Shown here in pieces: positions 1-32,846 of a stretch of 64,000 nt of DNA (position 1 is the stretch's first letter; every line of letters starts with the position of its first letter). The notes under the pieces were generated by a model. That model made no database searches. It was not told the DNA's origin and saw only the letters and a program-made list of their open reading frames with translations. Both the position numbers and the translations under genes were made by a program. This DNA comes from a virus: IMG/VR virus record IMGVR_UViG_3300045988_132810, positions 64,001-128,000 of that record; one strand, 5' to 3'.

Positions 1-3000
1 GTTTGAGTGCTGTTCGACTAAACCAACAATATTCTCAAAGTCATCCGCAATATCATTTAGCTGTTCAAGACGTTTAGCGGAAATTTCAGCAATAGATTCT
101 AGATAGCTATTCTCTGCATCTTCTGCTTTTGTAGACCATGTACGATATTCTTCAATGGCATCAGCAATTTCGCCTTCGCTTTCCCCGATAAAGTCTTTAA
201 TTGCGATAGCGCCGTTCTTTGCCATTTCTTGATACTCGGCGGGAACTTTAGACAGTAGCTCCGTTGCCTTCTGGTTGTAAAGCTCTGCTGCAGCAAAATA
301 TGTAGATGCTTTCTGTTTTTCTGCTCCGACTAAGTCATCATATAAGCTGTTCTTATCTCCAATTTGAGAAGTATCGTCAAGGAAATTCTCAATTCTATTG
401 GTCATATGAGTAATTGCCTTCTCGATTTCTTCAAGCTTATATTCAATAAAGTCAATGGTTTGCTCTGCATCATCGGCTGCGTCAGATACATCACTTGCCG
501 CATCAGATAGGTCACTAGCAGCATCACTTAAGTCCCAACCCATTTGAGACCAGTCTTTGTCACTGCCATCTCCCCACGCAGCATTCGCTCCAGTGTCAGT
601 TTTCTTTGTATAAGTACCATAATTCCAGTGAGCATTGCCTTTAGCAAACGACAAGCCGCCAGTGTATGTCCCACGAGACGTGTACCCATTCTTTAATAAC
701 TCTTCTGTCTGCTTGTGGTTATAGATTATTGCACCCTTCGGCAAATCAAGCATTTCCGTGCCATGTTCTCCAACAGTATAATAAACGCCCTTGTTTGCGT
801 CTACTACTAGTTCACGACCAAGCTCGCCTACAATGGCATTGTGCTCATTTGCTTTTAATCCGGGCTTCTTGCCTGAATGCGCATTGCCTTTTGCCAAAGC
901 ATTTCCAAGCGCACTAGACGCACCGTCAGGATTATAGCCACTTCCGCTTTTTGCATCTTCACGACCTTGTGTAAATTTACTCTTCAGGTTGTTCCAAAAA
1001 TTTCTCGCTTGTGTACTAATCCAAGAAGAAACCGATTCCCAAAGACCATTAATGGCACTAGGAACAGTTTCTGTGAAGAATGTAGAAATGCCAGTTTTAA
1101 TATTTTCTAAAGTAGTAGGTACTGTTTCTGTAAGAAATGTCCCGACTCCTTCCCAAAATTCATTCCATTTTGTCGGAAGCGTTGCTGTAAAGAATTCTAA
1201 AATCTTTTCTCCCGCTGTGACCAACGCTGGGCCAATCACTTCATCAACATAAGTGCCGACACTCTCCCAGAAAGAATGCCATTTTTCAGGAACTGTCTCG
1301 GTAAAGAATCCATACACGCTATCCCACGCCGCGCTTAAGGCTGGCGCGATTGTGCCATCAATATATTGGCCAACGCTAGTCCAAAATTCACTCCATTTTG
1401 TAGGAATTGTTGTCGTGAAGAACTCAACAACTTTATCTTTCAAAGCAATAGCGTCTTCTTTTAAATTGTTTAATTCTTCGCCAACACCATCCCAAAATTC
1501 ATCCCATTTTTCTGGAATAGTTTCTGTAAAGAATGTAACTACCGCATCTTTAAGATCGCTTGCCCATTGTTTTACTTTGTCGAAATCTTCACTAACATTA
1601 TCCCAAAACTCTCCCCATTTCTCAGGGACAGTCTCTGTAAAGAATTCTTCCACTTTCGCAGATATATATCCAACTGCGTAAGGGATGTCGCCAAGGAATT
1701 CCCCAACACTTCCCCAAAACTCGTTCCATTTTTCTGGAATCGTTTCGGTAAAGAATGTATTAACGCCTTCTTCTACATTAGCAGCCCAATCTTTTACTCC
1801 GTCAAGACATTCGCCAACACCGTTCCAGAACTCATCCCATTTTTGAGGCAATGTGTCTGTGAAAAATGTATTTATGTCTTCCCATAGTCCTTGCGCCCAT
1901 TCTTCTGCACCAGATAATTTGTCTCCAATACCGCTCCACAAATTGTCCCATACAGTTGGCAATGTTTCTGTAAAGAAAGTAGATATGCCACTCCAAATAT
2001 TGTTGGCGAATTGCTGTACCTCAACAACCACCTCGTCCACTAATGCGTTCCAACCTGCAATTACTTGATCAGGGCTTTGTGCTTCAAATCCCGTAACGTT
2101 GGAAGTAGAAGTTGTGCTTGCACTTTTTTCAGTACTCGTCGAAGTTGTACCAGAGCTTGTTTTTGTTGTATCAGTTGTTTTAGTATCTTGCTTCTTGTTT
2201 TTGTCTGGAGATTGAATGGCATCCAAAATGTTGTCAAGGACTTCTTTGACCTGAGTTATTCCATCAGTTATTGGGTCAACTTCTTGATTAGTTAACACCT
2301 CAAGTTGTTGTTCGTCATTTTTTAAATCAACATATTCTTGAATCTTCTGTTGCTGATCTTCGTCTAATTCAAGCGTTGCCGGGATCTTCCAAACGCCATC
2401 TTTATCTTGCTCTAGCTTTGGAACTACCTCAGTAACTAGAGTTGCATTTTCTTCTTTCCACTGATCAATTTTAGATTGGACATCAGTCAATACAACCTGA
2501 AAATCCATTACGGTTGGCTGTTCTAGACCATATTTAATTTTTAAAGCTTCTGCTAACTGCTCTTTTGCTTTTTCGAGCTCATCCGTCTTTATTTGGATCT
2601 CTTCATCCGAAGCTCCAGCATCTTTTAACTCTTGTAATTCTCTTGTAAGTGTTGATACATTTTCTTTTGCAGTATCAACGGTATTGTTTGCATCGATCCA
2701 AGCTTTTGTATTGTCAACAATTGCCTGCTGCGCATTATTCAACGAATCTGTAGCGCCATCAATTTCTTGCTGAATCGCATTATATTCTTCTGCATTTTCG
2801 CCAAGTGGATCTTTACCAGCCTTGAAAAACTCTTCTTGCTTCGCAAGTGCCTTGTCCAAAGAGTCGGTAGTATCTCTAAGTTTTTTGTCAAGTTCTGTCA
2901 TAGTTAGGTCAGAAACGATATCTCCCCAACTTGCATCATATTTTGACAGCTCTGTCAACATTGCAATAGTTGCGGCCTTTGTTAATCCCATTGCATTTGC

Positions 3001-5850
3001 AAGGTCGTCAACGCTCTTTATACTACTATCAAGAGTAAATGTGCCGTCCGCATTTTCAATAAAAGCACTAGCTTCTTTCGCGTCGGCAATAAATGCTTCT
3101 ATGTTCTTTAAGCCTATTGAAAAATTTCCATCATCATCAATAGTGAAATAGTCTGCAAACTTTGAGTTTTCAAAATAATCATCAATGGCGTCAAGACGTT
3201 CTTCAAAAGTTTTACAGTTTGCAATGACGCTCGGAGGAACTAATGCCTCACATGCCGCCTTAAATGCTTCCGTCCCAACTTTGCCACTCAACAATCCGTC
3301 GCTAATGGTCTCAAGCATTTCAACCATTGAGTCGCCATACGCCATTTCTGAATCTCTGTTTTTGGCATCTTCAAATTCATCATATGCATTGGTAACATCT
3401 GATAATTTCAACTCTAAAATTGAATATTCTTTAACTGCATTCTTGAGTGCTTGTATCTGACTACGCAGCGCGCTAATATTATCATAAGTTGCTTTTGTAA
3501 CATATCCATACGCCTTGTAATCCGCATACATTGCCTTAACAGCCTGTTGTAGTTGTTTTACAACTTTTGTATACTGCGACTGACTTTGTGCTTTCGCCGC
3601 ACTTACTGTTGCCTTTTGTTCTTTTTTCTTCTGTGCAATTAATGCTCTTAATAGACGTGTATTCTTAACGACCTTGCCATTCGTAGTATCAATTGCGTCA
3701 CCGAAGCTCTCTTCGCCAACAGTTACATCTCCAAGATACTCTTGGAGTGCAGTATAATAATCGTCAGAAATCGCTTGCCCGTCAAATGTTATGTCATTAA
3801 CTGTCTGTAACACTGACGCATACGAATCATAAGCAGAAGTAAGGCTTGCTATGTCGCTAACAGCCACAGAAGTGGCTTCACTAGTCTGTTGCATAGCACC
3901 GCTAATGTTCAAGAAATATCTTGCAACATCTTCTGCACTAATTCCAAGAGAGTCTAATTGTACTTTAAACTGTGGATTTTCAGCAATTAAGCTCTCAACC
4001 TCTCCAGTGACTCCTTCAATAGCAGATTCGTAATCTCCGAATTTATCAACGTCAACATTGATCTCTCCAGATTCAATTTTCGCGTTAAATGCTTCTTGGA
4101 ATGCTTGTCCTGCCTCAGAACCACGCTCGCCGAATAAGCGGTCAAGAGCAGACTCTTTTGCTCCAGCAGAACCAAACATGATTTCTGCTCGATCATTGTA
4201 ATTTTGCATCGAACTAAGAAGACCATTTACTGCCTTTTGTGCCTCTGTTAAATTGTCACCATCAAACCATTCCAAGTCGCTGACGCCATATTCTTCTTCT
4301 TTGCCTTTCATAAACTCGTCCCAATTGGACTGTGCGTCGGCATAATCTTCTTGCGCAGACTCTAAATTCTTTTCTAGCTTTTGGAACTTTTTGCTATTGG
4401 TGTCCATACCAGAGTCTAAGACATCCTGTACTTCTGCTTCCGCTTTGTCTAGTTTATCTTTGGCGTTCTTTACTTTACCTAATTCGTCTTCGAAATTGTT
4501 TGTTAAATCAGCCTCGCCAGCCGCTCGCGGCTTAAAATCTTGATCTGTATCTAATGCGCCCTTTACAGCCTCTGCTTGCTTGTTTTTCGCACGCTCTTCT
4601 CTTGCTTCTTCTAACCGAATCTGACGTTCAAGCTCGGCATTTTGCTCTTTTAATTTGTCAAGCTCTTCTTGCTCTGTAAGAGTTAATGGACCTTTAGATT
4701 CGAGCTCTTCTATACGATTCTTTGTAGTTTCTAATTCGGAGTTGAGAGACTCTATATTCGAACGAATATTGTCTAGTTCCTCACTAGTGTCTTTAAGTTC
4801 TTCTACGTAATCTTTATGAGACTTAGTTAATGCACAAATAGTCACAGTCAACGCAGCAATTGCAGCAACGGCCAAAATCGCCCAGCCAACAGGATTTGTT
4901 ACGAGCCAAGCTGCCGCAGTCGCCACTGCCTCCCAGATGCTTGCGGCCAATGCTTTAAAAGACACTATCAGTCCAGTATTCGCAGTAGTTAGCCCCATGG
5001 CAGCAATAATTGCTTCAGCGTCCGCACCAACAATTCCTTGCGTTGCAAGTGCTTCTCTAATCTTCGCTGCAGTATTTAAGTTCGTTGCAACAGTTTCTTC
5101 TCCTGCTTTACCAGTTAGGATTGTCCTTATAGCGGCTTCTTTTGTTGCATCACCAATTTTAGTCGAATTTAAAATCGCTTCTTTTACTTTTGCTCCATTT
5201 AGCGCTTCTATCGCTGCAGTTTCTCCTGCGTATGTGGCTATGTTGCTCTTGATTGCATTAGTTAACTTTGACCATAGGTCTGGCAAGAAAAACTTGCCGA
5301 GTTGGATACCAGCAATTGTAATAAGTGCGCTTTGCAACACGCCAACTTTGTCTATGATATTTACTAATCCAGTGCCAACATCCACAAGGAATTTAACAGC
5401 ATCAGACCTTATAAAATTCATCCACATTGTTTGGACTGCATTTGTAAACTGATCAATCTTTCCTTGAATACTATCCAAGTATTTTTCATTTTCGGCCATT
5501 GCACTGCCAGCAGAATCTGCAGATGTTTGCATCGCATCTTCTACTAAGTCAAAATTCTTAATAACGGCGGATAAAACATTTGCTTGTCTTTTCCCGCCTA
5601 GCAATTCTAGTGCGGCTGCTCGATTTACGTCCGTCATGTCGTCCCATACTTGAGACATTTCACGTAAAATTTCTGTAGTGTTCTTGAATGTATTCTCATC
5701 GAGCATAATGTCAACTTTACCGCCTGTTAAAGCTAACAATTTTTTCTGCAGTTCTGAGACGCTATTGGCCATGCCATCAACGTCCTCACCTGCATCTTCT
5801 AATTCTACCTTGGCTCCGCGAATACGAAGCGATAAGGTTTTCATTGCTGT
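1..5850 (-). CDS. Tail tape measure protein, exon 2 (3' partial; frame still open at base 1, at least 1950 codons)
   Basis: Hand translation of the minus frame from 5850 to base 1 shows no stop: TAMKTLSLRIRGAKVELEDAGEDVDGMANSVSELQKKLLALTGGKVDIMLDENTF...AAALELLGGKRQANVLSAVIKNF... This resumes the TP901-type TMP core (PhageMin_Tail PF10145 / TIGR01760 pattern vG.alKtlslRlRg) exactly where the upstream ORF is cut. It is missing from the ORF track only because it has no stop inside the window. Further in there is a hydrophobic segment (AAWLVTNPVGWAILAVAAIAALTVTIC), coiled coils, nine W/F repeats, and a NAIVGELGRELVV...LPKGAIIYNHKQTEELL motif typical of Firmicute-phage TMPs. Confidence 0.85.
970..1980 (-). 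repeat. Nine in-frame tandem repeats (37-38 aa) FFTEThPxKWxEFWxxVGE inside TMP exon 2
   Basis: The FFT codons start at 1977, 1866, 1755, 1644, 1533, 1422, 1308, 1194 and 1080, giving periods of 111 nt five times and 114 nt three times. The antisense ORFs in the track show the same periodicity (SQNSxHFxGxVSVKN). Trp/Phe-periodic repeats are a known TMP feature. Confidence 0.9.
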
Positions 5851-6163
5851 CGATCTATTACTTTCCCACGAAAACCAAATGGTACTGACCGATTATGTAA
5901 TCGGCGGCAAGGTCTTTCGGCCTTGCTCTACGATTTTATTTTTAGATTATTGTCGTAGTCTAGACTGGATCTTCACCCTCATTCCCGTCATTATACGGAG
6001 TAGGGGAACAGCGGAACCTGTTATGTTACCATAAAAGGTCTTACAGTCGTTACGGATACTTTGCACACTGCAAAGTCTTTCCTCGGTCTTGACCATCTCT
6101 GGCTTTTAACCGATATAGCTGTTTTCTTTCAATATATTACTATATTGTTAGGCTATTATGTTA
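5851..6163 (-). ncRNA. ORF-less group I intron (313 nt) interrupting the tape measure gene
   Basis: The upstream ORF ends ...LITAANSVVQNPESVG followed by TAA (6163..6161), in the middle of the conserved TMP core. The core resumes in frame at 5850 (TAMKTLSLRIRG). P1 helix: exon UAGGU (6168..6164) pairs with intron GCCUA (6153..6149), placing a U.G wobble at the 5' splice site. The last intron nucleotide is G (5851). Structured elements include CUUUGCA-GUG-UGCAAAG, GCAAGG..GAAA..CCUUGC, and CUACGA...UCGUAG. It shares conserved blocks with the second intron at 28644..28916. Confidence 0.8.
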
Positions 6164-9100
6164 ACCTACAGATTCTGGATTTTGCACAACGCTATTGGCG
6201 GCTGTAATTAACCCAATAGACTCATCAAGTGTATTGCCAGCCTCTGCCATAGCACTAGCAGAACGCAATAGCGCTTGTCCAATACCTGATGAACTGATTG
6301 CAAAGTGGTTTCCCACCTCGTTGAATTTATCTACGATTCCCATAGCATGAGACGCTTCAATACCAAATCCGTGCATTGTAGAAATGATACTGTCAGAAGC
6401 CTCACCAATATCGGCTAGGTCATCACCAACGTTATAATAAACGGAAGCGGCCTTTGCCAAGTCAGATGCTTGTTCAATGTTATATCCTAACCTTGCGAAA
6501 TCTGCTGTAGCATTAGTAAAATCTTTAACGGTAGAGCCGATCTGCCCAGCAGTTTTAGACGCATCTTGTAAGAATCTCTTATAACTTTCATCAGTTTCGT
6601 CAGTAACTTTTTTCAGTTCAGTTAACGCTGCGTCAATTTCTCTTACATATGTAATACCTTGCTTAATTTGAGCAACAGTTTTATACACCATATTTGCGCC
6701 AGTAAAGTATGTAAGAATTTCACCAGACTTTTTCTTAACATTGCTAAAGAAAGAGCCAAGCGTACTACTTGCTTTGCCCATATTCTTAGCGGAAGCATTA
6801 ATAGCATTTCCCGCTTGATTAAACGATGCAGTTAGTTTTTCTACTTCGCCATTGCCATTCTTTATTGTAAAAGTAACCTTGGAATAGTTGTCAGCGAACT
6901 GAATAGATTTTTTATCTAACCCATCAAAAGAATTAGCAAATGCTTCTAATTCACTTCTTCTGCTTGCTTCGTCGCCAATATCAAAGCCATCAGAGACTGC
7001 ACGAGTGATATTACCAACTTTGTTTTTCATCTCTTCGGACTTCTTAATGATATTTTCAATTGCTTTGCCATATTTATTAAATGACTCAACTGCACTATCA
7101 AACTCTGCGGCCTTTTGCTTACCCAAATCCGAAGTGATGTCTATGTTTGCAAGCTCTTTTTGAAGTGTAATTATTCTTTGATATGCTTGCTCGTATTGCT
7201 GTAATTGAGTAGTAACCCCGGAGGCATTGGCATAGCCTTTGCTATTAACGCTATTAATTAACCCAGTATGCTTTGTTTCGACTTGTCCGACAACATCTGC
7301 CCCATACAAAGTATTGTTTTGCTTTGCTGAGTCCTTCTTTACCTTTGCGTACTGTTCAAAATCGCTCATGAGCTGCTTTGTCGCAGCACTCAACCTTTGC
7401 ATGTCATCTTCTGACACTTTACCAAAGGCTTCTTCGGACTTTGTTAGATCTTGTATCTCCTTTGATAGAGTTTCATATCTACTCTTTAACTGGCCAAGAT
7501 CACTATCTTTATCTACGAAGACTTCCGTATCAATTTTCCTAAAAGCAGAAGATAGCTTTTGATTTGCATCTATTAATGTTTTATAATTGTCTAGTTCTTT
7601 ATAGCTGTCGTTAGAACTTTTAGAACTACTAGAATGAGAAGTTATCCCTTTTCTTGTGCCCTTGCTGGAATCAGCTTCATTTCCAAGTGATTCAGCAGTT
7701 TTATCCGCGCTATCTTTTACATTTTGGTTTGCATTAGCAAAATCATTTTTCGCTTGAGTGGCTGACGCGAAAGCCTCGCTCGCTTCTCTCGCCTTTTCTA
7801 TTTCTTTTTCTATAGCAACCGCAGAAGCTTCCGCACTTTCCTTAACTCGTGCATTAGCTTCAACAAACTGATTTTTTTGTTCCGTCGCCGCCGCAAATGA
7901 TTCCTGTACACCACTAACGCTGGCTACTTCGGGAGCAGTCGTTGCAGGATCTCCTGTATTTTGACCATTAGCAATCTCACCAGTTGCTGTCTTCGAAACC
8001 TTTGACGCATCGCTCTGATTTTGTTTTTCTTTTTCTTTTGTAATTTGCTGTTGCGTTTCCAATTGTTGCTTTGCTTCTTCATTTTGTTGTTTCTCTACTG
8101 CCAACTCTTGCTCTGCCGCATCGGTGCCTTTTTGCTTTGCTTCTGTCGCACTACCTAATTGTACTTTTGCTTCAGCAAGCTTGGTTTTTAATTCATCAAT
8201 TACAGAAGACAAATTTTCAATTTTTGCTCTATATTCATCTACGACATCATTTGAAGTCATATTATCGACTTCGCTCATCGGGACAGAATTATCTAGAGCA
8301 TTTTGGATGTCGTAATAACTATTCTTCCACGAATCTAAAGCACCTTCCATACGAAGGATTTCTTCTTCCAATTCTTGTACTTGTTTTTGTGCCGCGTCAA
8401 GCTCGGAAGCGTCAACAGGATTTGTCGGAATAGCATTTAATTTTTCTTTAAGAGCGGCAATTTCTTGCATAAGCTCTTTTTCTTTTTCAAGCTGCGCGGT
8501 TTGATTGTCCATTTGATTAGACTGAGTTGAAGGCTGCCCAGACTGAATCTGATTAAGCTTTTCTTGCGCGGTAGTCTCCTCGTTGATAGCCTCAGTAGTT
8601 TTTTGATGTGCTTCTGCTGCTTGCGCTTCGATTTCCTTAATTCTAGCTACGCTTTGATTCCAAGCATTAGTAGAGTCAATTTCTCCACTCTCGAACGAGC
8701 TAAAAATATCTTTAAACTTGTCCCAATCGGCGGTGTGCGATGGATTTAATGTTGCCAATAAACTTTTTAATTTTTCAATTGGTGCAACAGAATTTTCTCC
8801 ATTCTTTTGTATTTCGGCTAAATAAGATGACAACTCTGGTAGCTGTTCCATTGTATATGTCTTAACAGTCGAAGCTAACCCATTGTCTGTAAACGCCTTA
8901 TCTAGGGCTTGATTGACTTTTTCATTAAACGCAGCAATCAACTGTTCATATGAAATGCCCGCTTGCGCCGCTTTTTCTTCTGCTCCTTTTATTAATCCAA
9001 CTTCTCCGTCATTATATTCCATCAGAGGAAATTCTTTTGTAGCTGCTTTTAAATTTTGAGAGTAAGATTCTCCAATTTTGATGGCCATTTCTTTAGAAAT

Positions 9101-10831
9101 GCCAGTAAAATCAATTGTTTTAACAACGCCATCTGCAATGATACCATTAATTTTTGTGCCTTGGTCATAAAACAACTTGGTAAATGAATTAATATCCGAC
9201 GGCGTAAATGCACTCATTCCATCTGGGTGATTGTGCAAAGACATTACGATATTTTCTTTTAGATTGTTGACAAGTTGTGATACTATTGCGTCTGTATCTA
9301 CCTGAAAATCCTTCCCAGAAAAAGAACTTACCACTTTGTCCGCGCCAAAAAGCGTCATAGACTCTTTTGCGTCGCCGCTACCTTTTGAATAACCAACCTC
9401 TTGCCCCGACGCAACATTTAATAATTCTTGTAGCTCGCCAGTTACACCGCTAACTTCTTTTGCGCTTTTTTGTGCAGCCGTAGGAATTTCAACATTAAGT
9501 AGCTCACAGATTTTAGAAAGTGCTTCGGCTCCGGTAATGTCTCCAAAGTCTAAATCTGAAAAGATCTGTTCAATTGCAGTCCCTGCCTCTTTAGACGCCT
9601 GAGAAACTTCTTTAATTTCATCGACAAGTGCCATTAACTTCTCTTCGTTTTGGGCCCCTTCGTCTGTCCCTGACAATAACGAGACATATTCTTTAACTCT
9701 TTTATTTAACTCATCATATAAAGAAATCTTTTTTTCTTCCGAAGTTCCATTTTCTTTTTCTACAAAATCATCTGGATTTTCAATGTTTTTAAGGTTGTCT
9801 ATTTCTAAATTAATATCTGCAATTTTTTGCTTATACTCGCTCTTTATCTTTTCAAGCGTAGCATTCTGCTTTGCTCTAAACTCTTCTAAAAACTCTTCGG
9901 CCCTATCATATTCTCTAGAATTTGCAGCATATGCCGTAGCGTCATCGCTACCATGCTCGAACACATAATCCATTGTGCTCTTTAACTGGCTTGCTGCCTT
10001 TATTTTTCTTACAAAAGCTTCTTCTTTCCCTGACTTGCCAGTTCTCTCTAATTCCGCAAGTTCTTGCTCTGCTTTTTTAAAATCTTCAACAAGGCCAGCT
10101 AGAACAGTAGTATCATTTTTCTTTGTTGTTTTTACTCTTTTGTCTTTGCCATTAAAAATGTCTAATGCTTCTTGATATCTTGCCTTTTGTTTTTCCAGTT
10201 CATCAATTTGTCGTTGAACTTCTTCGGAAATTTTATTACCTGCATCTTTGATATCGCTAGACACTTCATCCCCAGCAGACTTGATATTATCTCCAACTTT
10301 AGATAAATCAATCTCGCCAAATGCGATATTTAATTTACCATTTAACTCGCTGGCATATTGGATTAATGCATTAAACTGTTCTTCAACACTTTTAGTGTTA
10401 AAAAGGTCTAAGTCAATTTGTTTATCAATGCCAACGTTCTTGAGGATTGTATTTAATTGCTCTGCGTAGCTCAGTAATTCTTTCGTCGCACCTTTGTCTT
10501 TTAAATTAACACCACTAAGCCCAGTAAAAACGTTTTTAGACAACTCTGAAATCTGAGACATCTGTTCAACCATTTTATCAAAAGACTTCATATATCCGCT
10601 ATTAAGCTTATCTCCAAGACCTGCTTTGACGGAATCCAAATCTTTCCTAAGTGCCTTAACAGCATCGTCCATAGCGACAAACTGCTTAATAAAATTATTA
10701 AGATTTCCACGCTTGCCAATGTTTGCTAAAACTCCATCCACCTGTTCAGCTTGAGTCTTACATGCAACAAGGCTACTCATAAGATCATCAATACTATATT
10801 TAATTTTCGAAGTATAACTCGCTTCTGCCAA
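6164..10831 (-). CDS. Tail tape measure protein, exon 1 (about 1556 aa)
   Basis: This is track ORF 6161..10840. The C-terminal 330 aa match the TMP core pattern (TAGQIGSTVKDFTNATADFARLGYNIEQASDLAKAASVYYNVGDDL...FNEVGNHFAISSSGIGQALLRSASAMAEAGNTLDESIGLITAANSVVQNPESVG). The N-terminal part is coiled-coil and low complexity. The likely start is TTG 10831, 8 nt after AGGAGG (10845..10840); the listed GTG at 10840 overlaps the Shine-Dalgarno sequence. The terminal TAA belongs to the intron. Confidence 0.85.
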
Positions 10832-10848
10832 AAGAATCACCTCCTACT

Positions 10849-25640: not shown

Positions 25641-28600
25641 TTAAATAGAAATACATGGACAAATACCATGAGCTCTGTTAGATGGCATATAGCTACTCAT
25701 ATCACCCTGAATGCCAACCGCTCTAAAGTAAGAATTGTACGCCACTTCTGGTGAACGTAGATAATATATGCTCGCAGTATCCCCAATAGACTTAACTCTA
25801 TCTGCAGATGAACCAAAGAATTCAATTGCTTTACCTTCGGAGCTATATGGCGCTTCGGATGTGTTAAACATTTCCACATACGACGGTAGATATACATAGT
25901 CTTTTGAATAAACAATATCAGATGCCATATTACCAGCGGTTGCAGGAATCTGCACTTGCTTAATAATTGATTTCCACTCTGTTGGGAAAGCCGCATAAAC
26001 TCTACTATTACAGAACGCTCTCATTTTAGAGTCATTCCATCCGCCAAGGTTGGTGTTCGTAGAATTCATATTGTGAGTGAGAGATAGCAAATTCGCCGGA
26101 ATGAACGAAGCTCCAGTAATTTTACTAGAATCTTGCGCACATCTATATCTCTTATCACCATAATATTCATAGCGCCAAGTTTCATGCGGCCATGCAGCAA
26201 GCTGTCTAGCCGCAGTGTCTCCAATATCATCAAGCCATACTTTGGCCCAGTGAATTGTGCCCTTACCTAGCGTTACGCTATCAATTGTTCCATTTGACAG
26301 GAACTTAAATCCACCAAGCATAATTGTCGCCTCAGTATTAGTTGTACGATTGCGCACAAGCTCTGTATAAGCCATTTCGTCAGCATAAACACCAGTTGTA
26401 GAAGCTCCAGAGTTAAACGAGTAGATATAAAGTTTACTTTCTCCCTTGCGGTGACGAAGCACAACGATATCTCTTTGGCCTCCTTTGCCTACTACTTTAC
26501 TAGTATTTCCCCACTGGATTTCTGGATTTGTACCATTATACTTTAGTCTAAATCCTTCAGAGCCATCATATTCAAAGCAAGACAATAGCGTAGCATCAGC
26601 GATATTGTCGCCAAACTCAAAATCTATAGCCATTGTAAATGAACCAGAATCTGCGCCAAATAGCTTAACGCCAGAATCTACTACTTTTGAGGAAGTGCCA
26701 TCAAAAGTAATTTCATCTCCAAGCATATGTTCTTCAACATTTGAGAACGAGAAATCCTGCCCAACACGGACGTCAAAATAGTCTTTCTGCTCGAAATAAT
26801 CATTTGCTCTCCCAGCAGTTGTTACGGCATAAATCTGTACTGGAGTCATATCTTTCAAGTCAGTTCCAGATGCTGGGAGCCCATTTTGTGTCTCCCACTT
26901 AGCATAGACGTCAGTATCTCCAGTGATATAGCCTGTGCTCTTATCCCAGCCAGTGAATAGATTATAAATATAAGAATCCTCATTATCGCTCATAGTTGGG
27001 TTGTCGCCTTCATATTCCGCAACAGCACCATATTCTACGCCAGTTTTAGTCGCAAGAACAACGCCTGCTTGCTGGAACCAACGCACAGTATATGTTCTTA
27101 CTGACTCGCTATATTTTGCTGTCACAGTTACAGGAGCAGTAACATTCACATCAATGCCATCCCAGCCAGAGAAGGTATAATTGTACTGTGCGGTACTTGG
27201 AATTGTCGGAGTGTCAATTTCACCACTTGCGACAGGATCAGTAATCTTGCCGCCTTGGTCAACATACTGAACATAATCATTGCCACTCTTGTCTTTAATA
27301 GCAGTACCATCGGAATTCATAAACGTCACTTTATACTGAGTAATAATACCATTATAAGTGACAGCTAAATCAGGCCATGCTGCCGCATAAGCATCGAGTT
27401 CTCTCTGCCTTGCTTGGCCAGCAATATGAACCTTACCAGCAAGTAAATTGTTATTCATCTTCAAAATAGCATTTAACAATTCAGTGCTTGTCACAGTCCA
27501 GTCAATGCCAGTTAAACGAAGTGTCTGCAACGTGTCAATTGCATCCTCAACAATTGGATAAGCATCAATTACAGAGTTCTCAATAGTTAACGATTCAAGA
27601 TTGTCATATGTCGCCTGTAAATCGGTTAAGTAATTTAGATTCTTAAAGCTTAAGCTATTGATTGTATTTGGTAAGTGAGCAAGTGCAATCTTACCATTTG
27701 CCGCGAATAGCACACCAGTTACAGATGTCCCCTCTGCATAAAGCTTCTCTAAGTTGCCACAGCTTGACAGATTGATCGATCCAGTCAATTTAGGGCAATT
27801 ACGAATGTCAAGTTCTTCAAGTAACGCATTGTTGCCAAGGTTTAGATTGGTTAAGAATGCATTAGAATAACCAGAAGTTTTATTGCCAATTACAAGCGTC
27901 TTAAGCTTTGAAGCCTTACTAAAATCATTATCGTGAATATAGCAAGCAGAAAGATCATTCAATGCCTGAATGCGAGAAGCACAATAAATTAGTACTGCCG
28001 TATCATCCATCTTGGTAAATGGACATTGAATTTCATAAGATTGTCCTGCCTTTGCACGAATCTGCTGTGCACTTGGAGAGTTGCCAAATAGCACAGACAG
28101 ATACATATCTGAATAAGGCACAATGTTTAGAGTGTAATTAGGTGCAACAACTACACCAGAAGGAGTATTGCATCTAAACATAATTTGATCTGCCTTGACA
28201 GTTGTAGACAGATATTTCGTTCCCATATAAGCCGCTTGGTCACGTTCAAATTGTCTACGCTGATATTTCTTACGACCATTCATCATAGACTCTAAGAAAC
28301 GAGGCGTTGGCTCTGGAGTTGCACCAGCATTGAGGCCACCACCTTGATATGTCCTGTAATACTTACGCTCAATATCAAGTCTCCAAAGCTCTTCTGGGAA
28401 TTGTGCTTGCCAATTGTCAAATTCATTAATTAGAGATGTTGCACTAAAGCAACCTTCTCCTTCAAGAGTTTGATACATTACTGCAAGCTCATCGTGGAAT
28501 AAATCACGTATCCTACACCAAAATACATTGTCTGCTGCATTAAATATATAACCCGAAGATTTATCGCCTTCGGTGCGATAGTCAGTGTCTTCCTTGCCAT

Positions 28601-28643
28601 ATGTCATGGTAAGCTCGCCACTGTTGTTAATTCCAAGGGCTGT
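25641..28643 (-). CDS. Giant tail adhesin, exon 2 (1000 aa): end of CotH-like domain, LRRs, B-repeats, LamG-like, DUF6273-like C-terminus
   Basis: The frame of track ORF 25641..28607 stays open 12 codons further upstream (TALGINNSGELT) up to the intron 3' end. LRR segment: LKTLVIGNKT...LTNLNLGNNALLEELDIRNCPKLTGSINLSSCGNLEKLYAEGTSV. B-repeats: YNYTFSGWDG and YNLFTGWDKSTGYITGDTDVYAKWE. C-terminus: GGWNDSKMRAFCNSRVY...YVYLPSYVEMF...IYYLRSP. Confidence 0.8.
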   Translation of the reverse strand, partial: TALGINNSGELTMTYGKEDTDYRTEGDKSSGYIFNAADNVFWCRIRDLFHDELAVMYQTLEGEGCFSATSLINEFDNWQAQFPEELWRLDIERKYYRTYQGGGLNAGATPEPTPRFLESMMNGRKKYQRRQFERDQAAYMGTKYLSTTVKADQIMFRCNTPSGVVVAPNYTLNIVPYSDMYLSVLFGNSPSAQQIRAKAGQSYEIQCPFTKMDDTAVLIYCASRIQALNDLSACYIHDNDFSKASKLKTLVIGNKTSGYSNAFLTNLNLGNNALLEELDIRNCPKLTGSINLSSCGNLEKLYAEGTSVTGVLFAANGKIALAHLPNTINSLSFKNLNYLTDLQATYDNLESLTIENSVIDAYPIVEDAIDTLQTLRLTGIDWTVTSTELLNAILKMNNNLLAGKVHIAGQARQRELDAYAAAWPDLAVTYNGIITQYKVTFMNSDGTAIKDKSGNDYVQYVDQGGKITDPVASGEIDTPTIPSTAQYNYTFSGWDGIDVNVTAPVTVTAKYSESVRTYTVRWFQQAGVVLATKTGVEYGAVAEYEGDNPTMSDNEDSYIYNLFTGWDKSTGYITGDTDVYAKWETQNGLPASGTDLKDMTPVQIYAVTTAGRANDYFEQKDYFDVRVGQDFSFSNVEEHMLGDEITFDGTSSKVVDSGVKLFGADSGSFTMAIDFEFGDNIADATLLSCFEYDGSEGFRLKYNGTNPEIQWGNTSKVVGKGGQRDIVVLRHRKGESKLYIYSFNSGASTTGVYADEMAYTELVRNRTTNTEATIMLGGFKFLSNGTIDSVTLGKGTIHWAKVWLDDIGDTAARQLAAWPHETWRYEYYGDKRYRCAQDSSKITGASFIPANLLSLTHNMNSTNTNLGGWNDSKMRAFCNSRVYAAFPTEWKSIIKQVQIPATAGNMASDIVYSKDYVYLPSYVEMFNTSEAPYSSEGKAIEFFGSSADRVKSIGDTASIYYLRSPEVAYNSYFRAVGIQGDMSSYMPSNRAHGICPCISI

Positions 28644-28916
28644 CGATCTGTTACTATATAGGCTTGGCCCTATATTATGACTTACATTTCTGTAAGCGGA
28701 GCAGGTTCTTCTTTAAGCGGTCTGATTACCGTTGACCCACTCTCTGCAATTTCATTATTAGATTATAGTTGCAGTCCAGACTGTTGCATACTTCATAACT
28801 CGCGTCACAAAGCCCTTTGTACTCAGTCGTTGCAGGCGGAAAATTTCCTTCCTGAGCGTTGCCAATCTCTTGGTTTTCGCCATTAATCAACAAAGGTTTT
28901 ACAACGACAAAATTTT
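28644..28916 (-). ncRNA. ORF-less group I intron (273 nt) interrupting the giant adhesin gene
   Basis: Exon 1 reads ...[10 protein letters not shown]. Read-through gives KILSL followed by a stop, and exon 2 resumes in frame as TALGINNSGELTMTYGKEDTDY. P1 helix: exon AACGAU (28922..28917) pairs with intron GUCGUU (28908..28903), placing a U.G wobble at the splice site, and the helix can extend to 8 bp. The terminal G is at 28644. The 3' end AGUAACAGAUCG matches intron 1 (AGUAAUAGAUCG). Shared core blocks are AACGACUG, CAGUCURGACU and AUAAUCUAA. Confidence 0.8.
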
Positions 28917-31900
28917 ATCGTTATCATAGTCCCACAGCTCAAAACGATATTTACCATCTACACATTTAGCATAATGATAAAAAGAATTTTTCGCTCTGTT
29001 ATCGATCATAGTATATCTCTCAGTGAACACATACCAATAAAGAGCAGAATCTTTGATTACCCAATTATCAAGCTGTGTGACAAACTCTTCATCAGTAGAA
29101 GTAATTACCCATTCATAGAAATCACGCCACACCTGCTTGTTCAATGCTCTTTGTGCCTCTTGCTCTTCTGTAGTGGCAGTTGTCATTCCATCCTTCGTTT
29201 CGCCACCCATTTCATAGCGGAACTCGAATGAACCATCCCAGTCATTGTAAAGAGCGTCATAAGCAGTGTTACCAGCCTTCCACTGTTCTTTCGTGATAGG
29301 ATAAGTCATATTACCATCGCTGTCGGTTACACCAGTTTGGAAAGTACTGTTAGGTAGAGTATTGTCACTTACTTCAATGACAAACTCTTTTAGGTCAGAG
29401 ACATCATTGACTCTGGTAGCATCGGTTTTTTTTGAATCACCAATATTTCCCAGCCCGTAGAAGTGCCAATCATTATCCTTAAATTCCATATGTTTAGAAA
29501 CATCAGGATCGGTTTCTTTAATGAACACTACGCAATTTTGGAACTCCATGCTATTCTTACACTTTGGATCATTTTCCATAGCAACAGTTTTATATGGCAG
29601 ATAGTCATTATAACGCTTCTGGAGCAATGCGTTATTTGCATTTTCAGAGCTTGCGATATTCAGCTTGATGTTCCACCAGTTGTTTGGCACAGAGTTCCTA
29701 GTCAAACTAACCTTACCAGAACCATCAGAATACTTTGTTCCATCTCCAAGAATAAGCTCCGTTACATAACTCGTATCCAAAGGAATCTTGCTGATAATCT
29801 GCTTCTTGCCATCAGCACAAGCAATAATATCAATATTTCTACCAGCGTAACCATATTCGTTAGAAGTCGTTCCCTGTCCAGAAAGATAAGTGTTCATGAA
29901 CTTCCAGTTATCTAGCACCGGGTCTCCACCCTTATAGATGCATTCGACATTTACGCCTTTTACAAAATCTTTTTTGTCCTTAGTAAAACGAGGACACTCA
30001 ATCTTAATAACTCTTAACTGTGGGCATGCATTTGCCACAGATTCAGGAGTTAGCGCATTATTTTCGTTATAAATCTGATTACGATTATATCTTGCAATCA
30101 TCTCATCAGAGTCTCTTGCATCAGCAACGAAGTTTGACAAAATGTTAGAGTCAGTCAGTGAAGCACTATAAGCCTTCATCCTATAGATGTGAACATCACA
30201 ATCTGTAGAACCAATAGTAATAGGCACTGGCTCGTACTGATATAGTCTATGCGTTGAATCGTAAATCATAGGTCTTAGACCAACACCATCTTCATAGCTC
30301 ATAATGACTGCAGTCGCATCTGAATTGTCCTTATCAATTGTATTAATATTGAACTCAAATTCAATAATATCTTCCTCGCTATAAGGAATATATAGACTCT
30401 TAATACTAGACTTCAAATACGCCTCATGAACATTCATTTGCAGGCCCACAACAGTAGAATCTGCTTGGCAAGTCAGGAATGTTGCATTTGCATTACTAAC
30501 ATTCGTAGTTTTAAAAACGCATTTAAATTCAGAACCATAAACACTTGCGTCTCTCTCAAAAAGCTTATAATTGATAGTGGCAGTTGTTCCAGCCTTAACA
30601 CAGAAATACTGGTTGCCATCTTCGTCAATCTGATAGCCGCCATTGCTCCAGTCGAAGTTATTTGAAACTGTCATTGCAACATCAGTGTTTGCGTCTTTCC
30701 ACAGTCTGTCTTCATCGCTATTGGAAAGGCCAGTAGGATTAAAGTCAAATGCCAAATTTGCAGTAATTGGCTCGATAGTAATACCGAGCTCCTCAATATT
30801 CATAATAATTTTAACAGTTGTGTCTCTGCAAGTAATGAGCAAAGTATGTTCACCAACATCAGAAGATTTATATGCCCAGACATCAGAATTGCCACTCATG
30901 ACCTGAGTCGCAACAACTTTGCCGTCAACACTTCTTGTAACAGTCGGAGTTGCCGTCTTCGGGTCATAAACATAGAACTGAATATTCGTTGAATTATACT
31001 GTTTGGCAGTTACTTTACCATAATGGTCATATCTATAAACGCATCCGATAACAGGAGCATCACCATTCTCGTCATACCACATAATGTCCTTGAAGATATG
31101 CTCAGTTTCAATGCTTTTACTATTAATCGTTGCTGTAATATAGCACTCAAATAAATGCGCACCATGGGCCTGAGCTGGAATTGTATAAGACTGCAATGTA
31201 CCAGAGGAACCAGTCGAAACAGTTCCAATTTCAACACCATCAAGCACAAAATGCACAGTTTTATTTACTGCGCCATATGGAGTGTATGTGAAATTGACAA
31301 CACTATTTGCCTGATATGTAATCTTATCATTAAACGAAGATTCGAGTCTTACGTCTACCTTTTGCACAGTCCAAGACTTAACAGCAGTAGTGCCAGCAGC
31401 ATCCACAACAGTCAACGTAAACTTCTGAGTGCCAATATTGGTGTAATCAGACATATCAAACGTATTCACGCCCTGCACTAATGCACCAGTTGATAGAACA
31501 GTGCTACCAGACTTCCAAGTGTAAGTGCCATCCACAGCTTCTCCATCACTATCCACTGAAGAATAATTAAAGCTAATCTCTACCTTATCTGTCGTAGTAA
31601 CAATAACTGGAGATTCAGTAATACGCTCGACTTTAAGAGTAGTAGTAACAGTAGAACCACCGCCACCACCAGTAATTACGAATTGGCTCTTTACTTCTTC
31701 TTTTTCATCTTTAACTTCGTAAAGTGTAAAAACATTCTCTTTCTCTTCGCCAGTTGCTAGAGTAGCATTTCCATATGTAGCATAGTATGTATAACCTTCT
31801 GTGTCGATACCGTCAACGGTTTGTCTTAGCGTATCAATATTTCTACTTAGAGAAGCAATGTTTGTCGTGTTTGCTTCAATGTTTTGTGCGTTTGTGTCTA

Positions 31901-32846
31901 CAGATGCCTTAAGTGTAGAAACCTTGCTGTCAATTTGAGACTTTGTATAATTGTCTCCCCCGATAATGCAGAACTCATCATTAATATAGCGATAATGCAC
32001 GTACAGCCCATCGCCATTTTTCACATAATAATCAGTAAACTCATTTCCCGTTTCAGGTAATGACTCCACTACATTCGCCATAGTTCCTGCAATCATTTTC
32101 CAAGAGTTATCAATCCATTTATAATAAAAACATCCTGCATCTGAATGTAGGATATAATCAGTTTCTACATCACCAGTTTGTGGCAGCTCAGTAACTACAA
32201 GAGTGGAGCTTCCTTTAAATTCATCCCACTTTTGATTGCCATCGTTATCCGTAATCCACCAATACTTTTCATAACCGCTACCAGACGCCTTTGGAACAAG
32301 ATAGAATGTGTAATCTTCGCCTGAATCTGGAAGCTCGTCAACGACTTCAATGCTATAAGAATGAAAATCAGCTAGTGCCGCATCAATATCAGATTTTGCT
32401 GATTTAGTATATAATTTGCCACCTGCATCAACACCAACCTCTTGCGTCATATTGTCTGCTTTTGGAATAGCTTTTACGCCGCCAAGCACGTTTTCTGAGG
32501 CAGTAGGCAGAGTGTAATTTTCTAAATTTTTAAGTTTATCCTTTTCTGCGTCTGTATAATCATTGGTAGACAATCCCTTGCCAGACACCTTGTCTACTTT
32601 ATTGTTATTAATTTGATTTTGTCTGCTTTGAACAACAAATGTGTCATTCTGAGTTAGAGACGGCAAACTGACAGTATAAGTGCCATTTGTAAGTGAAGAA
32701 ACTTTTATTCCTTGTCCAAGCGTCTTTTCTGTCACAAATACGTCGTCGCCATTTAGAGTCGGAAGCTTAACGACGTGCGAACCATCTGTTAAGTTCTCTA
32801 AGTTATATGTTTTGCCTCTAACAGTAACCTTGTTTATGAAAGCCAT
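28917..32846 (-). CDS. Giant tail adhesin, exon 1 (1310 aa): TYNLENLTDG N-terminal module, fibre and Ig-like regions, CotH-like domain start
   Basis: Track ORF 28899..32846 minus the last 5 read-through codons. N-terminus: MAFINKVTVRGKTYNLENLTDGSHVVKLP. The C-terminal part, YWYVFTERYTMIDNRAKNSFYHYAKCVDGKYRFELWDYDND, resembles the CotH (PF08757) core (..NyYlY....kw.fipWDlD..fG). Confidence 0.8.

What the first reader, a model, noticed from the sequence alone, without database searches (positions are those of the whole stretch)
5851..6163. Group I intron hidden inside the tape measure gene, shown as a false gene end in the ORF track
The 1559-aa ORF stops at TAA in the middle of the most conserved part of the TMP core (...AANSVVQNPESVG). 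The missing continuation (TAMKTLSLRIRGAKVELEDAGED...) resumes in frame 313 nt later and stays open to base 1.

The interval has the hallmarks of a group I intron:
- The 5' exon ends in U.
- A 5-bp P1 helix (exon UAGGU with intron GCCUA, 10 nt downstream) places the U.G wobble at the junction.
- The last intron nucleotide is G.
- There are several strong hairpins, including a GAAA-capped stem.
- There is no internal ORF.

I know phage group I introns mainly from polymerase, nucleotide-metabolism, terminase and lysin genes. I am not aware of a described one in a tape measure gene.
Basis: partly seen in the sequence, partly recalled or inferred. Interest (0 to 1): 0.85.

Follow-up and report, generated by a model that had tools for sequence, protein, structure and literature searches.

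The report
Self-splicing intron in phage tail gene
A 313-base group I (self-splicing RNA) intron without its own gene interrupts the tape measure gene of a large uncultured phage; the call is sound, but introns in this gene have been described since 2008, so this is a new member of a known kind.

Summary
The minus-strand ORF 6161..10840 stops at a TAA that begins a 313-nt insert (5851..6163). Removing the insert joins the two halves in frame and restores one continuous tape-measure domain. Phages 86-98% identical in protein read ...GTAGGT|ACAGC... with no insert; six sequences carry the same insert.

The insert folds as a group I intron: a 5-bp P1 with U.G at the splice site, a terminal G, and the P3/P7 pseudoknot enclosing P4-P6, with P8 and P9-P9.3. 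I collected about 20 divergent relatives. Across them 91.8% of cells pair, against 31-38% when partners are slid, and 48 of 66 pairs show compensatory changes. The guide sequence co-varies with the exon in 18 of 18 members. A model built from this family detects the experimentally proven Twort introns (43 bits).

Rfam RF00028 gives nothing for this family, so that test is a false negative. Splicing itself is inferred.

The novelty claim fails. Group I introns in tape measure genes were described in Bacillus cereus-group prophages in 2008. Splicing of an interrupted tape measure gene was shown in Vibrio phage ICP1 in 2023.

The model also found a second, 273-nt intron at 28644..28916.

The parts
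6164..10840 (-). Exon 1 of the tape measure gene (1559 codons as listed; the true start codon was not determined). The last 5 nt, UAGGU (6164..6168), form the 5' strand of P1.
5851..6163 (-). Group I intron, 313 nt, with no ORF. It begins with an in-frame UAA stop and ends in G.
1..5850 (-). Exon 2 of the tape measure gene (1950 codons, still open at the window edge). It starts TAMKTLSLRIRG.
6149..6153 (-). Internal guide sequence GCCUA, the 3' strand of P1. It pairs with exon UAGGU, with U.G at the splice site.
   Evidence: 18 of 18 family members keep at least 5 pairs, and positions -4 and -5 co-vary
6130..6147 (-). P2 hairpin CAAUAUA(GUAA)UAUAUUG, with a GNRA loop. It is optional in the family.
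6118..6122 (-). P3 5' strand ACAGC. It pairs with GCUGU at 6008..6012.
   Evidence: all 5 pairs show changes on both sides, 94.7% paired
6083..6113 (-). P4-P5 domain: P4 UCGGUU/GACCGA, J4/5 AAAA, P5 GCCA(GAGA)UGGU, J5/4 CAA.
   Evidence: 99% paired; compensatory changes in L052 and L061
6054..6082 (-). P6/P6a hairpin. Its terminal loop is where sibling introns carry a homing-endonuclease ORF.
6044..6053 (-). J6/7 GUAAC followed by the P7 5' strand GACUG. P7 is the presumed guanosine-binding helix.
   Evidence: P7 100% paired; G-C to A-U switch in 4 members; the same AACGACU motif occurs in T4 td and Twort
6015..6040 (-). P7.1/P7.1a hairpin between P7 and P3', with a GUAA loop. This is an IA-type extra element.
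   Evidence: 9 of 10 pairs with changes on both sides; absent in L052 and L061
6008..6012 (-). P3 3' strand GCUGU.
5976..6005 (-). P8 hairpin.
5963..5975 (-). J8/7 UGAAGAUC followed by the P7 3' strand CAGUC.
   Evidence: matches the RF00028 consensus gAAGAUAUAGUC shown
5866..5958 (-). Peripheral 3' domain: P9 (5928..5958, conserved loop AAUAAUCUAAAAAUAAAA), P9.1 with GAAA loop (5908..5925), P9.2 (5889..5904), P9.3 (5866..5882).
   Evidence: all four helices co-vary
5851..5865 (-). Conserved 3' tail GAAAGUAAUAGAUCG, ending in the terminal G (omega G) at 5851.

Best explanation
Window 5851..6163 (minus strand) is an ORF-less group I intron of the IA type that interrupts the conserved core of a giant tape measure gene of more than 3,509 codons.

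Proposed mechanism. The gene is transcribed as one pre-mRNA. The intron RNA folds into the group I core: P1 holds the 5' splice site as a U.G wobble, and the P4-P6 and P3-P8 domains are joined by the P3/P7 pseudoknot. A free guanosine bound in P7 attacks after the exon U. The terminal G then takes the guanosine's place, the freed exon attacks the 3' splice site, and the exons are ligated to read ...NPESVG-TAMKTL.... Ribosomes that reach unspliced RNA stop at the UAA that forms the first three intron bases.

Origin. The element is a homing-endonuclease-less member of a mobile intron lineage. Siblings at the same site in other phages carry a nuclease ORF in the P6a loop. The window copy probably arrived, or persists, by homing in trans or by recombination.

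What is shown: the exact boundaries, the restoration of the reading frame and protein domain, presence/absence among near-identical phages, the covariation-supported group I structure, and homology to proven group I introns. What is inferred: actual (self-)splicing, its chemistry, and the mode of mobility.
For: 1. Junction. Removing exactly 313 nt gives one PF10145 match (residues 218-435 of a 700-aa piece whose junction lies at 350/351; E 6.6e-22) and one TIGR01760 match (181-496; E 1.6e-29).

2. Presence/absence. L007 and L024 (98% aa), L001-L006 (86-92%) and L008 (65%) read GTAGGT|ACAGC without the insert. L016, L018, L021 and L023 carry an insert identical to the window's, and L014 differs at 1 nt.

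3. Structure. In 20 distinct relatives, 91.8% of 1250 cells pair, against 72% when shuffled and 31-38% when slid. 48 of 66 pairs change on both sides. The covariation score is 0.487 against 0.147, reached by 0 of 500 shuffles. Both arms of the P3/P7 pseudoknot are supported.

4. P1. In 18 of 18 members the last 5 exon bases pair with the guide sequence, with U.G at the site. Eight different 5-nt exon ends are each matched by their guide. All members end in G.

5. Homology. Model R1, built from the family core, scores the Twort orf142 introns at 43.4 bits (E about 1e-9) and 29.2 bits, and an RF00028-positive intron in L041 at 29.6 bits. The J6/7-P7 and J8/7-P7' motifs match T4 td, Twort and the RF00028 consensus.

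6. Mobile-element context. Sibling introns at this and other tape-measure sites carry ORFs that match PHROGs annotated as homing, HNH or intron-encoded nucleases. Intron-plus alleles share a block of exon differences from -157 to +63 relative to the intron-less L007.

7. Folding. MFE z = -4.5.
Against: Rfam RF00028 gives no match at the gathering score or at E<=10. By contrast, Twort introns score 64-101 bits and T4 td and nrdB score 40 and 36 bits.

No RNA data exist, so splicing is not demonstrated. I found no convincing P10 pairing for the window copy. The copies of this exact intron are nearly identical, so selection on the window copy itself cannot be measured. The alignment for the covariation count was MAFFT-made, with the structure projected from the window sequence, which favours the unslid register somewhat.
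Confidence: 0.9

Rival explanations
1. It is a group I intron in structure but is not autonomously self-splicing. It would need a protein helper (a host or phage factor, or a maturase-like nuclease from a sibling intron) to splice in vivo.
For: Some family members lack P8 (L040, L069, L079) or P7.1 (L052, L061), which shows that the periphery is plastic. No P10 is evident in the window copy. The family lies outside RF00028.
Against: The window copy has a complete core with every helix of the family consensus. The related Twort and T4 introns self-splice; this rests on established knowledge, not on a test here.
Confidence: 0.1
2. It is a decayed, non-splicing insertion. The tape measure gene would be broken, or expressed as two separate polypeptides (1559 aa plus a product that restarts at the AUG two codons into exon 2).
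For: An AUG lies at codon 3 of exon 2 (ACA GCA AUG). The intron has no endonuclease gene. No RNA evidence is available.
Against: The break falls in the middle of one conserved domain that is continuous in all intron-less relatives. The same insert sits in six otherwise intact large phage contigs. No Shine-Dalgarno-like sequence precedes that AUG. All core helices are intact.
Confidence: 0.04
3. It is another kind of intervening element: an intein, a group II intron, a MITE or IS, or a translational bypass.
For: Only the bare fact that an insertion interrupts an ORF.
Against: Stops occur in all three sense frames, so it is not an intein. At 313 nt, and beginning UAACA rather than GUGYG, it does not look like a group II intron (from established knowledge of group II introns). 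The boundaries show no target-site duplication or terminal inverted repeats. 313 nt is far beyond any known translational hop. The covariation fits group I topology.
Confidence: 0.01

Closest known systems
Group I introns TMP-IVS1, IVS2 and IVS3 in the tape measure gene of Bacillus cereus, B. anthracis and B. weihenstephanensis lambdaBa01-like prophages (Tourasse and Kolsto 2008, PMC2504315)
   Same: They are group I introns of the IA classes inside the conserved part of a tape measure gene of Firmicutes phages. There are several insertion sites per gene. Some copies lack a complete endonuclease gene. Related introns are retargeted to different sites through changes in P1.
   Different: There is no detectable DNA similarity: blastn of the window intron against plasmids, a collection I expect to include pBWB404 with TMP-IVS3b, found only a chance hit. 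The host phage group is different (large uncultured phages). I could not compare the insertion sites residue by residue.
HEG-containing intron in the tape measure gene of Vibrio phage ICP1 (Barth et al. 2023, PMC10448857)
   Same: A tape measure gene is interrupted and restored by splicing. The paper reports RNA-seq and RT-PCR evidence and calls the tape measure gene a frequently interrupted gene.
   Different: ICP1's intron carries an HNH endonuclease gene and sits in a phage of a Gram-negative host. The window intron has no ORF. The sequence relationship was not tested.
Staphylococcus phage Twort orf142 introns (AF132670) and the T4 td intron (IA2, experimentally self-splicing)
   Same: The core layout is the same: P1 with a ...GGU|/GCC guide as in td, a GNRA-capped P2, P3, P4-J4/5-P5-J5/4-P4', an ORF site in P6a, AACGACU at J6/7-P7, and GAnAUnnAGUC at J8/7-P7'. 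The family model R1 detects two Twort introns (43.4 and 29.2 bits).
   Different: The window family has one long P7.1/P7.1a hairpin where td and Twort have two short hairpins (P7.1 and P7.2). It also has a different P9 domain with a conserved AUAAUCUAAnAAUGAAA loop and a conserved tail GAAAGUAACAGAUUG. RF00028 scores Twort at 64-101 bits but this family at nothing.

Membership tests
Group I intron | P1 helix formed by an internal guide sequence and the 5' exon end, with a U.G wobble at the splice site | tested here: met
   The window has UAGGU/GCCUA. 18 of 18 family members keep U.G plus at least 4 further pairs, and exon positions -4 and -5 co-vary with the guide.
Group I intron | Terminal G (omega G) at the 3' end of the intron | tested here: met
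   G at 5851. Boundaries are fixed by intron-less alleles. All compact and ORF-bearing relatives end in G.
Group I intron | Conserved core: P4-P6 domain and P3-P8 domain joined by the P3/P7 pseudoknot | tested here: met
   P3 has 5 of 5 pairs with changes on both sides. P7 is 100% paired with one G-C/A-U switch. P4, P5, P6 and P8 are all supported. Overall 91.8% of cells pair, against 31-38% when slid.
Group I intron | Guanosine-binding P7 and conserved J6/7 and J8/7 sequence | tested here: met
   GUAAC-GACUG and UGAAGAUC-CAGUC align with AACGACU and GAnAUAUAGUC of T4 td, of Twort and of the RF00028 consensus. This is sequence resemblance only; binding was not tested.
Group I intron | Statistical homology to experimentally proven group I introns | tested here: met
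   Model R1, built from this family, hits the Twort orf142 introns at 43.4 bits (E about 1e-9) and 29.2 bits.
Group I intron | Score at or above the gathering threshold of Rfam RF00028 | tested here: not met
   No hit at the gathering score or at E<=10 on 801 nt. No family intron in seven further loci is hit at E<=1. Controls: Twort 64-101 bits, L041 63-79 bits, T4 td 40.3 and nrdB 35.7 bits, the T4 scores being below the cut-off of 50.
Group I intron | Precise excision restores the host gene | tested here: met
   In silico only: continuous PF10145 and TIGR01760 matches, and the spliced sequence is colinear with uninterrupted homologues.
Group I intron | Guanosine-dependent self-splicing | not testable with these tools
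   Needs an in vitro transcript with GTP and Mg2+, or RT-PCR.
Subgroup IA (IA1/IA2) of group I introns | Extra helices (P7.1 with P7.1a or P7.2) between P7 and P3' | tested here: inconclusive
   One long co-varying hairpin with an internal loop is present (window 6015..6040). There is no separate P7.2 as in td and Twort. Two family members lack the hairpin altogether. The subgroup definitions are from my memory of Michel and Westhof 1990 and were not checked here.
Mobile intron with its own homing endonuclease | Endonuclease ORF inside the intron | tested here: not met
   No ORF in the window copy. Siblings at the same tape-measure site (L040, L065), and L045 a few codons away, carry ORFs in P6a. 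The L045 ORF was scanned and matches a PHROG annotated as HNH endonuclease.
Intein | In-frame coding insert removed at the protein level | tested here: not met
   The length is 3n+1, and stops occur in all three sense frames.

The most novel reading that the evidence does not exclude
The window intron belongs to a distinct lineage of IA-type group I introns that RF00028, Rfam's group I intron model, does not detect. Its marks are a conserved P4-P5 sequence, a single P7.1 hairpin, a conserved P9 loop and a conserved 3' tail. The lineage has spread, by changing its guide sequence, over at least seven sites in the tape measure domain and into other late genes of large uncultured phages and prophage-like contigs of Clostridia-type genomes. 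If so, standard annotation pipelines systematically miss these introns and report split tape measure genes.
Probability: 0.5. Interest if true: 0.45.

Novelty: new member of a known kind. Interest (0 to 1): 0.35.

Why it matters
For annotation, the two ORFs (6161..10840, and 1..5850 continuing beyond the window) are one gene. It encodes a tape measure protein of more than 3,509 aa, and gene callers will report it as two genes with a false end.

For RNA-family resources, this intron family is invisible to RF00028 even at permissive thresholds. The alignment made here (about 20 diverse members, with strong covariation) could seed a new model and recover many split phage genes in metagenomes. It already found a second intron in this window.

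For biology, the finding adds to published evidence that the tape measure core is a favoured landing site for homing introns. It does not open a new question.

Tried and rejected
- Rfam at the gathering score and at E<=10 found nothing. I treat this as a false negative after controls.
- blastn of the intron against GenBank phages gave only a 47-nt match to Microcystis phage MaeS, which turned out to be the P3-P6 region of a related, unannotated intron. Against plasmids it gave only a chance hit.
- R1 cannot span the ORF-containing T4 td and nrdB introns, so T4 gave no R1 hit. This says nothing about relatedness.
- Pfam scans of the sibling-intron ORFs gave only weak matches (Vsr, E 0.002). PHROGs gave clear matches to families annotated as homing or HNH nucleases.
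- I looked for a P10 pairing between the guide region and the 3' exon. It is convincing in L053 and L055 but absent in the window copy, so I do not claim it.
- I considered a pairing between the conserved P9 loop (AAUCU) and the 3' tail (AGAUU). It does not hold across members, so I dropped it.
- Intein, group II intron, transposon and translational bypass were considered and excluded (see the rival explanations).

Full report
**Observation**

On the minus strand, the ORF 6161..10840 (1559 aa) ends ...AANSVVQNPESVG and then TAA. Translation from 5850 downward begins TAMKTLSLRIRGAKVELEDAGED and stays open to base 1, 1950 codons in all. The interval 5851..6163 is 313 nt (3n+1). The two halves therefore lie in different genomic frames and come into frame only when exactly 313 nt are removed. 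All three sense frames of the interval hold several stops. The longest ORF in the insert plus 30 nt of flank on each side is 51 aa, on the other strand. The interval folds much better than shuffled versions: -91.9 against -70.0 +/- 4.8 kcal/mol, z = -4.5.

**One gene, interrupted**

A 700-aa piece of the spliced product, with the junction at residues 350/351, gives a single PF10145 match (residues 218-435, profile 4-200 of 201, E 6.6e-22). It also gives a single TIGR01760 match (181-496, E 1.6e-29), so the domain runs straight across the junction.

A scan of viral contigs with the junction protein found 46 related loci, and tblastn on these shows which carry an insert.
- Phages 86-92% identical in protein (L001-L006), 98% identical (L007, L024) and 65% identical (L008) have no insertion here.
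- Five contigs (L014, L016, L018, L021, L023) carry the same 313-nt insert.

At DNA level the uninterrupted alleles read ...GAATCTGTAGGT|ACAGC.... The boundaries GGT|TAAC...ATCG|ACAG cannot be shifted by even one base. There is no target-site duplication.

**It has group I structure**

By hand I assigned these elements (coordinates):
- P1: UAGGU/GCCUA
- P2: CAAUAUA(GUAA)UAUAUUG
- P3: ACAGC/GCUGU
- P4: UCGGUU/GACCGA
- J4/5: AAAA
- P5: GCCA(GAGA)UGGU
- P6/P6a
- J6/7: GUAAC
- P7: GACUG/CAGUC
- an extra P7.1 hairpin between P7 and P3'
- P8
- J8/7: UGAAGAUC
- P9, P9.1 (GAAA loop), P9.2 and P9.3

To test this I searched public collections for the P4-P5 motif (ATCGGNNAAAANCCAGAGNTGGNCAANNCCGAGG). It occurs in 13 viral stretches, 5 genome contigs (Ruminococcus, Eubacteriales, Saccharibacteria, Colivicinus and Aminipila MAGs) and 21 metagenome contigs. 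The blastn search had already found it in Microcystis phage MaeS.

Twenty distinct members were aligned. ORF-bearing members had their P6a loop cut out first. I then counted pairs on this MAFFT alignment, with the structure projected from the window sequence:
- 91.8% of 1250 cells form standard pairs, against 72.2% after shuffling and 30.6-37.8% when partners are slid by 1-3 columns.
- 48 of 66 pairs show changes on both sides.
- The covariation score is 0.487 against 0.147, reached by 0 of 500 shuffles.

Both arms of the P3/P7 pseudoknot are supported. P3 has changes on both sides at all 5 pairs. P7 is 100% paired, with a G-C to A-U switch in four members. P7.1, P8, P9, P9.1, P9.2 and P9.3 also co-vary.

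P1 was analysed separately. In 18 of 18 members the last five exon bases pair with the guide sequence, with U.G at the splice site. Eight different 5-nt exon ends (UAGGU, UGGGU, CAGGU, UCGGU, UUGGU, AAGGU, GAGGU, and so on) are each matched by their own guide. Every member ends in G.

**Link to proven group I introns, and the Rfam negative**

RF00028 finds nothing in the window at its gathering score or at E<=10 on 5600..6400. It also misses the family introns in seven further loci at E<=1.

Controls show that the tool works and where it is weak:
- Three other introns in the tape measure gene of L041 score 63-79 bits.
- Twort orf142 introns score 64-101 bits.
- The textbook T4 td and nrdB introns reach only 40.3 and 35.7 bits, below the cut-off of 50.

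I built a covariance model (R1, 153 positions, 40 pairs) from the family core. It scores the window intron at 149.6 bits, which is expected because the window sequence is in the seed. Informatively, it scores two Twort introns at 43.4 bits (E about 1e-9) and 29.2 bits, and an RF00028-positive L041 intron at 29.6 bits.

The T4 td intron, read from the T4 record, shows the same order of elements and the same AACGACU and GAnAUAUAGUC core motifs. It even has a GGU|/GCC P1.

The RF00028 negative is therefore a false negative for a divergent IA-type lineage. It is not evidence against a catalytic core.

**How it most likely works**

Shown:
- the boundaries;
- restoration of the frame and the domain;
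- presence/absence polymorphism;
- the group I fold;
- homology to self-splicing introns.

Inferred, from established knowledge of group I introns:
- guanosine-initiated two-step transesterification;
- exon ligation to ...PESVG-TAMK...;
- termination of ribosomes on unspliced RNA at the UAA that opens the intron.

On mobility, the window copy has no endonuclease gene. Sibling introns at the same tape-measure site (L040 and L065, VG|TA), and L045 a few codons away, carry ORFs of about 130 to about 310 aa in the P6a loop. Introns at other tape-measure sites carry related ORFs. The ORFs scanned (from L045, L007, L041 and L035) match PHROGs annotated as homing, HNH or intron-encoded nucleases.

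Relative to the 98%-identical intron-less L007, all intron-plus alleles share a dense block of exon substitutions. There are 26 differences between -157 and -16, and 6 between +6 and +63. Only 1 difference lies between +64 and +320 in the window and L016 (up to 7 in the other intron-plus contigs), and none lies within -15..+5. This looks like a co-conversion tract and a conserved target site. It is an inference from few lineages.

**Wider picture in relatives**

The same roughly 320-aa tape measure domain carries insertions at at least seven positions in different phages:
- residues 42/43 of my query (about 1.2 kb with ORF);
- 83/84;
- 101/102 (475 nt and 1.2 kb);
- 150/151 (this site);
- 155/156;
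- 211/212;
- 228/229.

Most belong to the same intron superfamily; some are RF00028-type. The closest relative of the window phage (L016) has two introns in this domain, whereas the window has one.

**Comparison with what is known, and novelty**

[quoted passage not shown] They included copies without an endonuclease gene and copies retargeted through P1. Barth et al. (2023, PMC10448857) call the tape measure gene frequently interrupted, and report RNA-seq and RT-PCR analysis of splicing of the ICP1 gene.

The nearest cultured phages by tape measure protein are Brevibacillus phage Sundance (40% aa) and Enterocloster phages (32-34%). Both are uninterrupted in this domain. The window element is therefore a new member of a known kind. 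What is new is modest: a coherent intron lineage that RF00028 does not detect, and its spread over many tape-measure sites in large uncultured phages.

**Context**

All large ORFs of the window lie on the minus strand. Upstream of the tape measure gene are two small ORFs with no match, a Holliday-junction resolvase, two endolysins and tail or tail-fibre proteins. This is a phage late-gene region.

**By-product: a second intron**

R1 gave a second hit in the window at 28757..28895 (29.2 bits). It lies between ORFs 28899..32846 and 25641..28607, which match successive parts of one 2,494-position PHROG profile.

I placed the intron at 28644..28916 (273 nt), with P1 AACGAU/GUCGUU, a terminal G, and the junction ...ELWDYDND|TALGINNSG.... 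The boundaries are ambiguous by 1 nt on sequence alone; the U(-1) and terminal-G rule selects this placement. At least 27 close relatives (86-95% aa) have a contiguous 684-nt match across this junction. One (L130) carries the 273-nt insert, differing from the window copy at 18 positions.

**Verdict**

The category is already known, so interest is about 0.35.

Noticed in passing
window 28644..28916 (-): A second group I intron (273 nt, no ORF) splits one large gene into ORFs 28899..32846 and 25641..28607. It has P1 AACGAU/GUCGUU with U.G at the site and ends ...UAGUAACAGAUCG. The spliced junction reads ...ELWDYDND|TALGINNSG.... R1 scores it at 29.2 bits and Rfam misses it. At least 27 close relatives are uninterrupted here, and L130 carries the same insert.
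   Followed up: partly
L007, L009, L011, L012, L016, L031-L035, L040, L041, L045 (tape measure loci of related viral contigs): The same roughly 320-aa tape measure domain carries introns at at least seven different positions. There are up to three per gene. Many carry nuclease ORFs in P6a.
   Followed up: partly
L056, about 5000-5610: Two introns are separated by a 21-nt exon (ACAGCTATGAAAACACTGACT). The first is of the window family and sits at the same VG|TA site. The second is an RF00028-type intron scoring 93.9 bits.
   Followed up: no
L052 = Microcystis phage MaeS MT362618.1, about 36.3-37.6 kb: An unannotated intron of the same family follows CDS QJT70405, with P1 GAGGU/GCCUC and compensatory P4 and P5 changes. 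It seems to contain the small annotated CDSs as an ORF in P6a, and its 3' end reads ...GAAAGUAACAGAAUG.
   Followed up: partly
L040, L069, L079 (family members at the same tape-measure site): These copies have no P8 hairpin between P3' and J8/7 (GCUAC-UGUUA-GAAGAUA-CAGUC). It is unclear whether they still splice.
   Followed up: no
window 9194..9235 (-) and about 1080..1977 (-): The tape measure protein is very large, more than 3,509 aa and still open at the window edge. Its N-terminal part holds a JAMM/MPN-like motif (HNHPDGMSAFTPSD). Exon 2 holds nine tandem repeats of about 37 aa (FFTETxPxKWxEFW).
   Followed up: no
L053 about 6760-7050 and L061 about 7000-7300 (-): The same intron family also sits in genes other than the tape measure gene. 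In L053 the gene starts MAFMLG|DIIVDRV. In L061 the intron lies in a ribonucleotide-reductase-like gene, with an HNH-like ORF just upstream.
   Followed up: no
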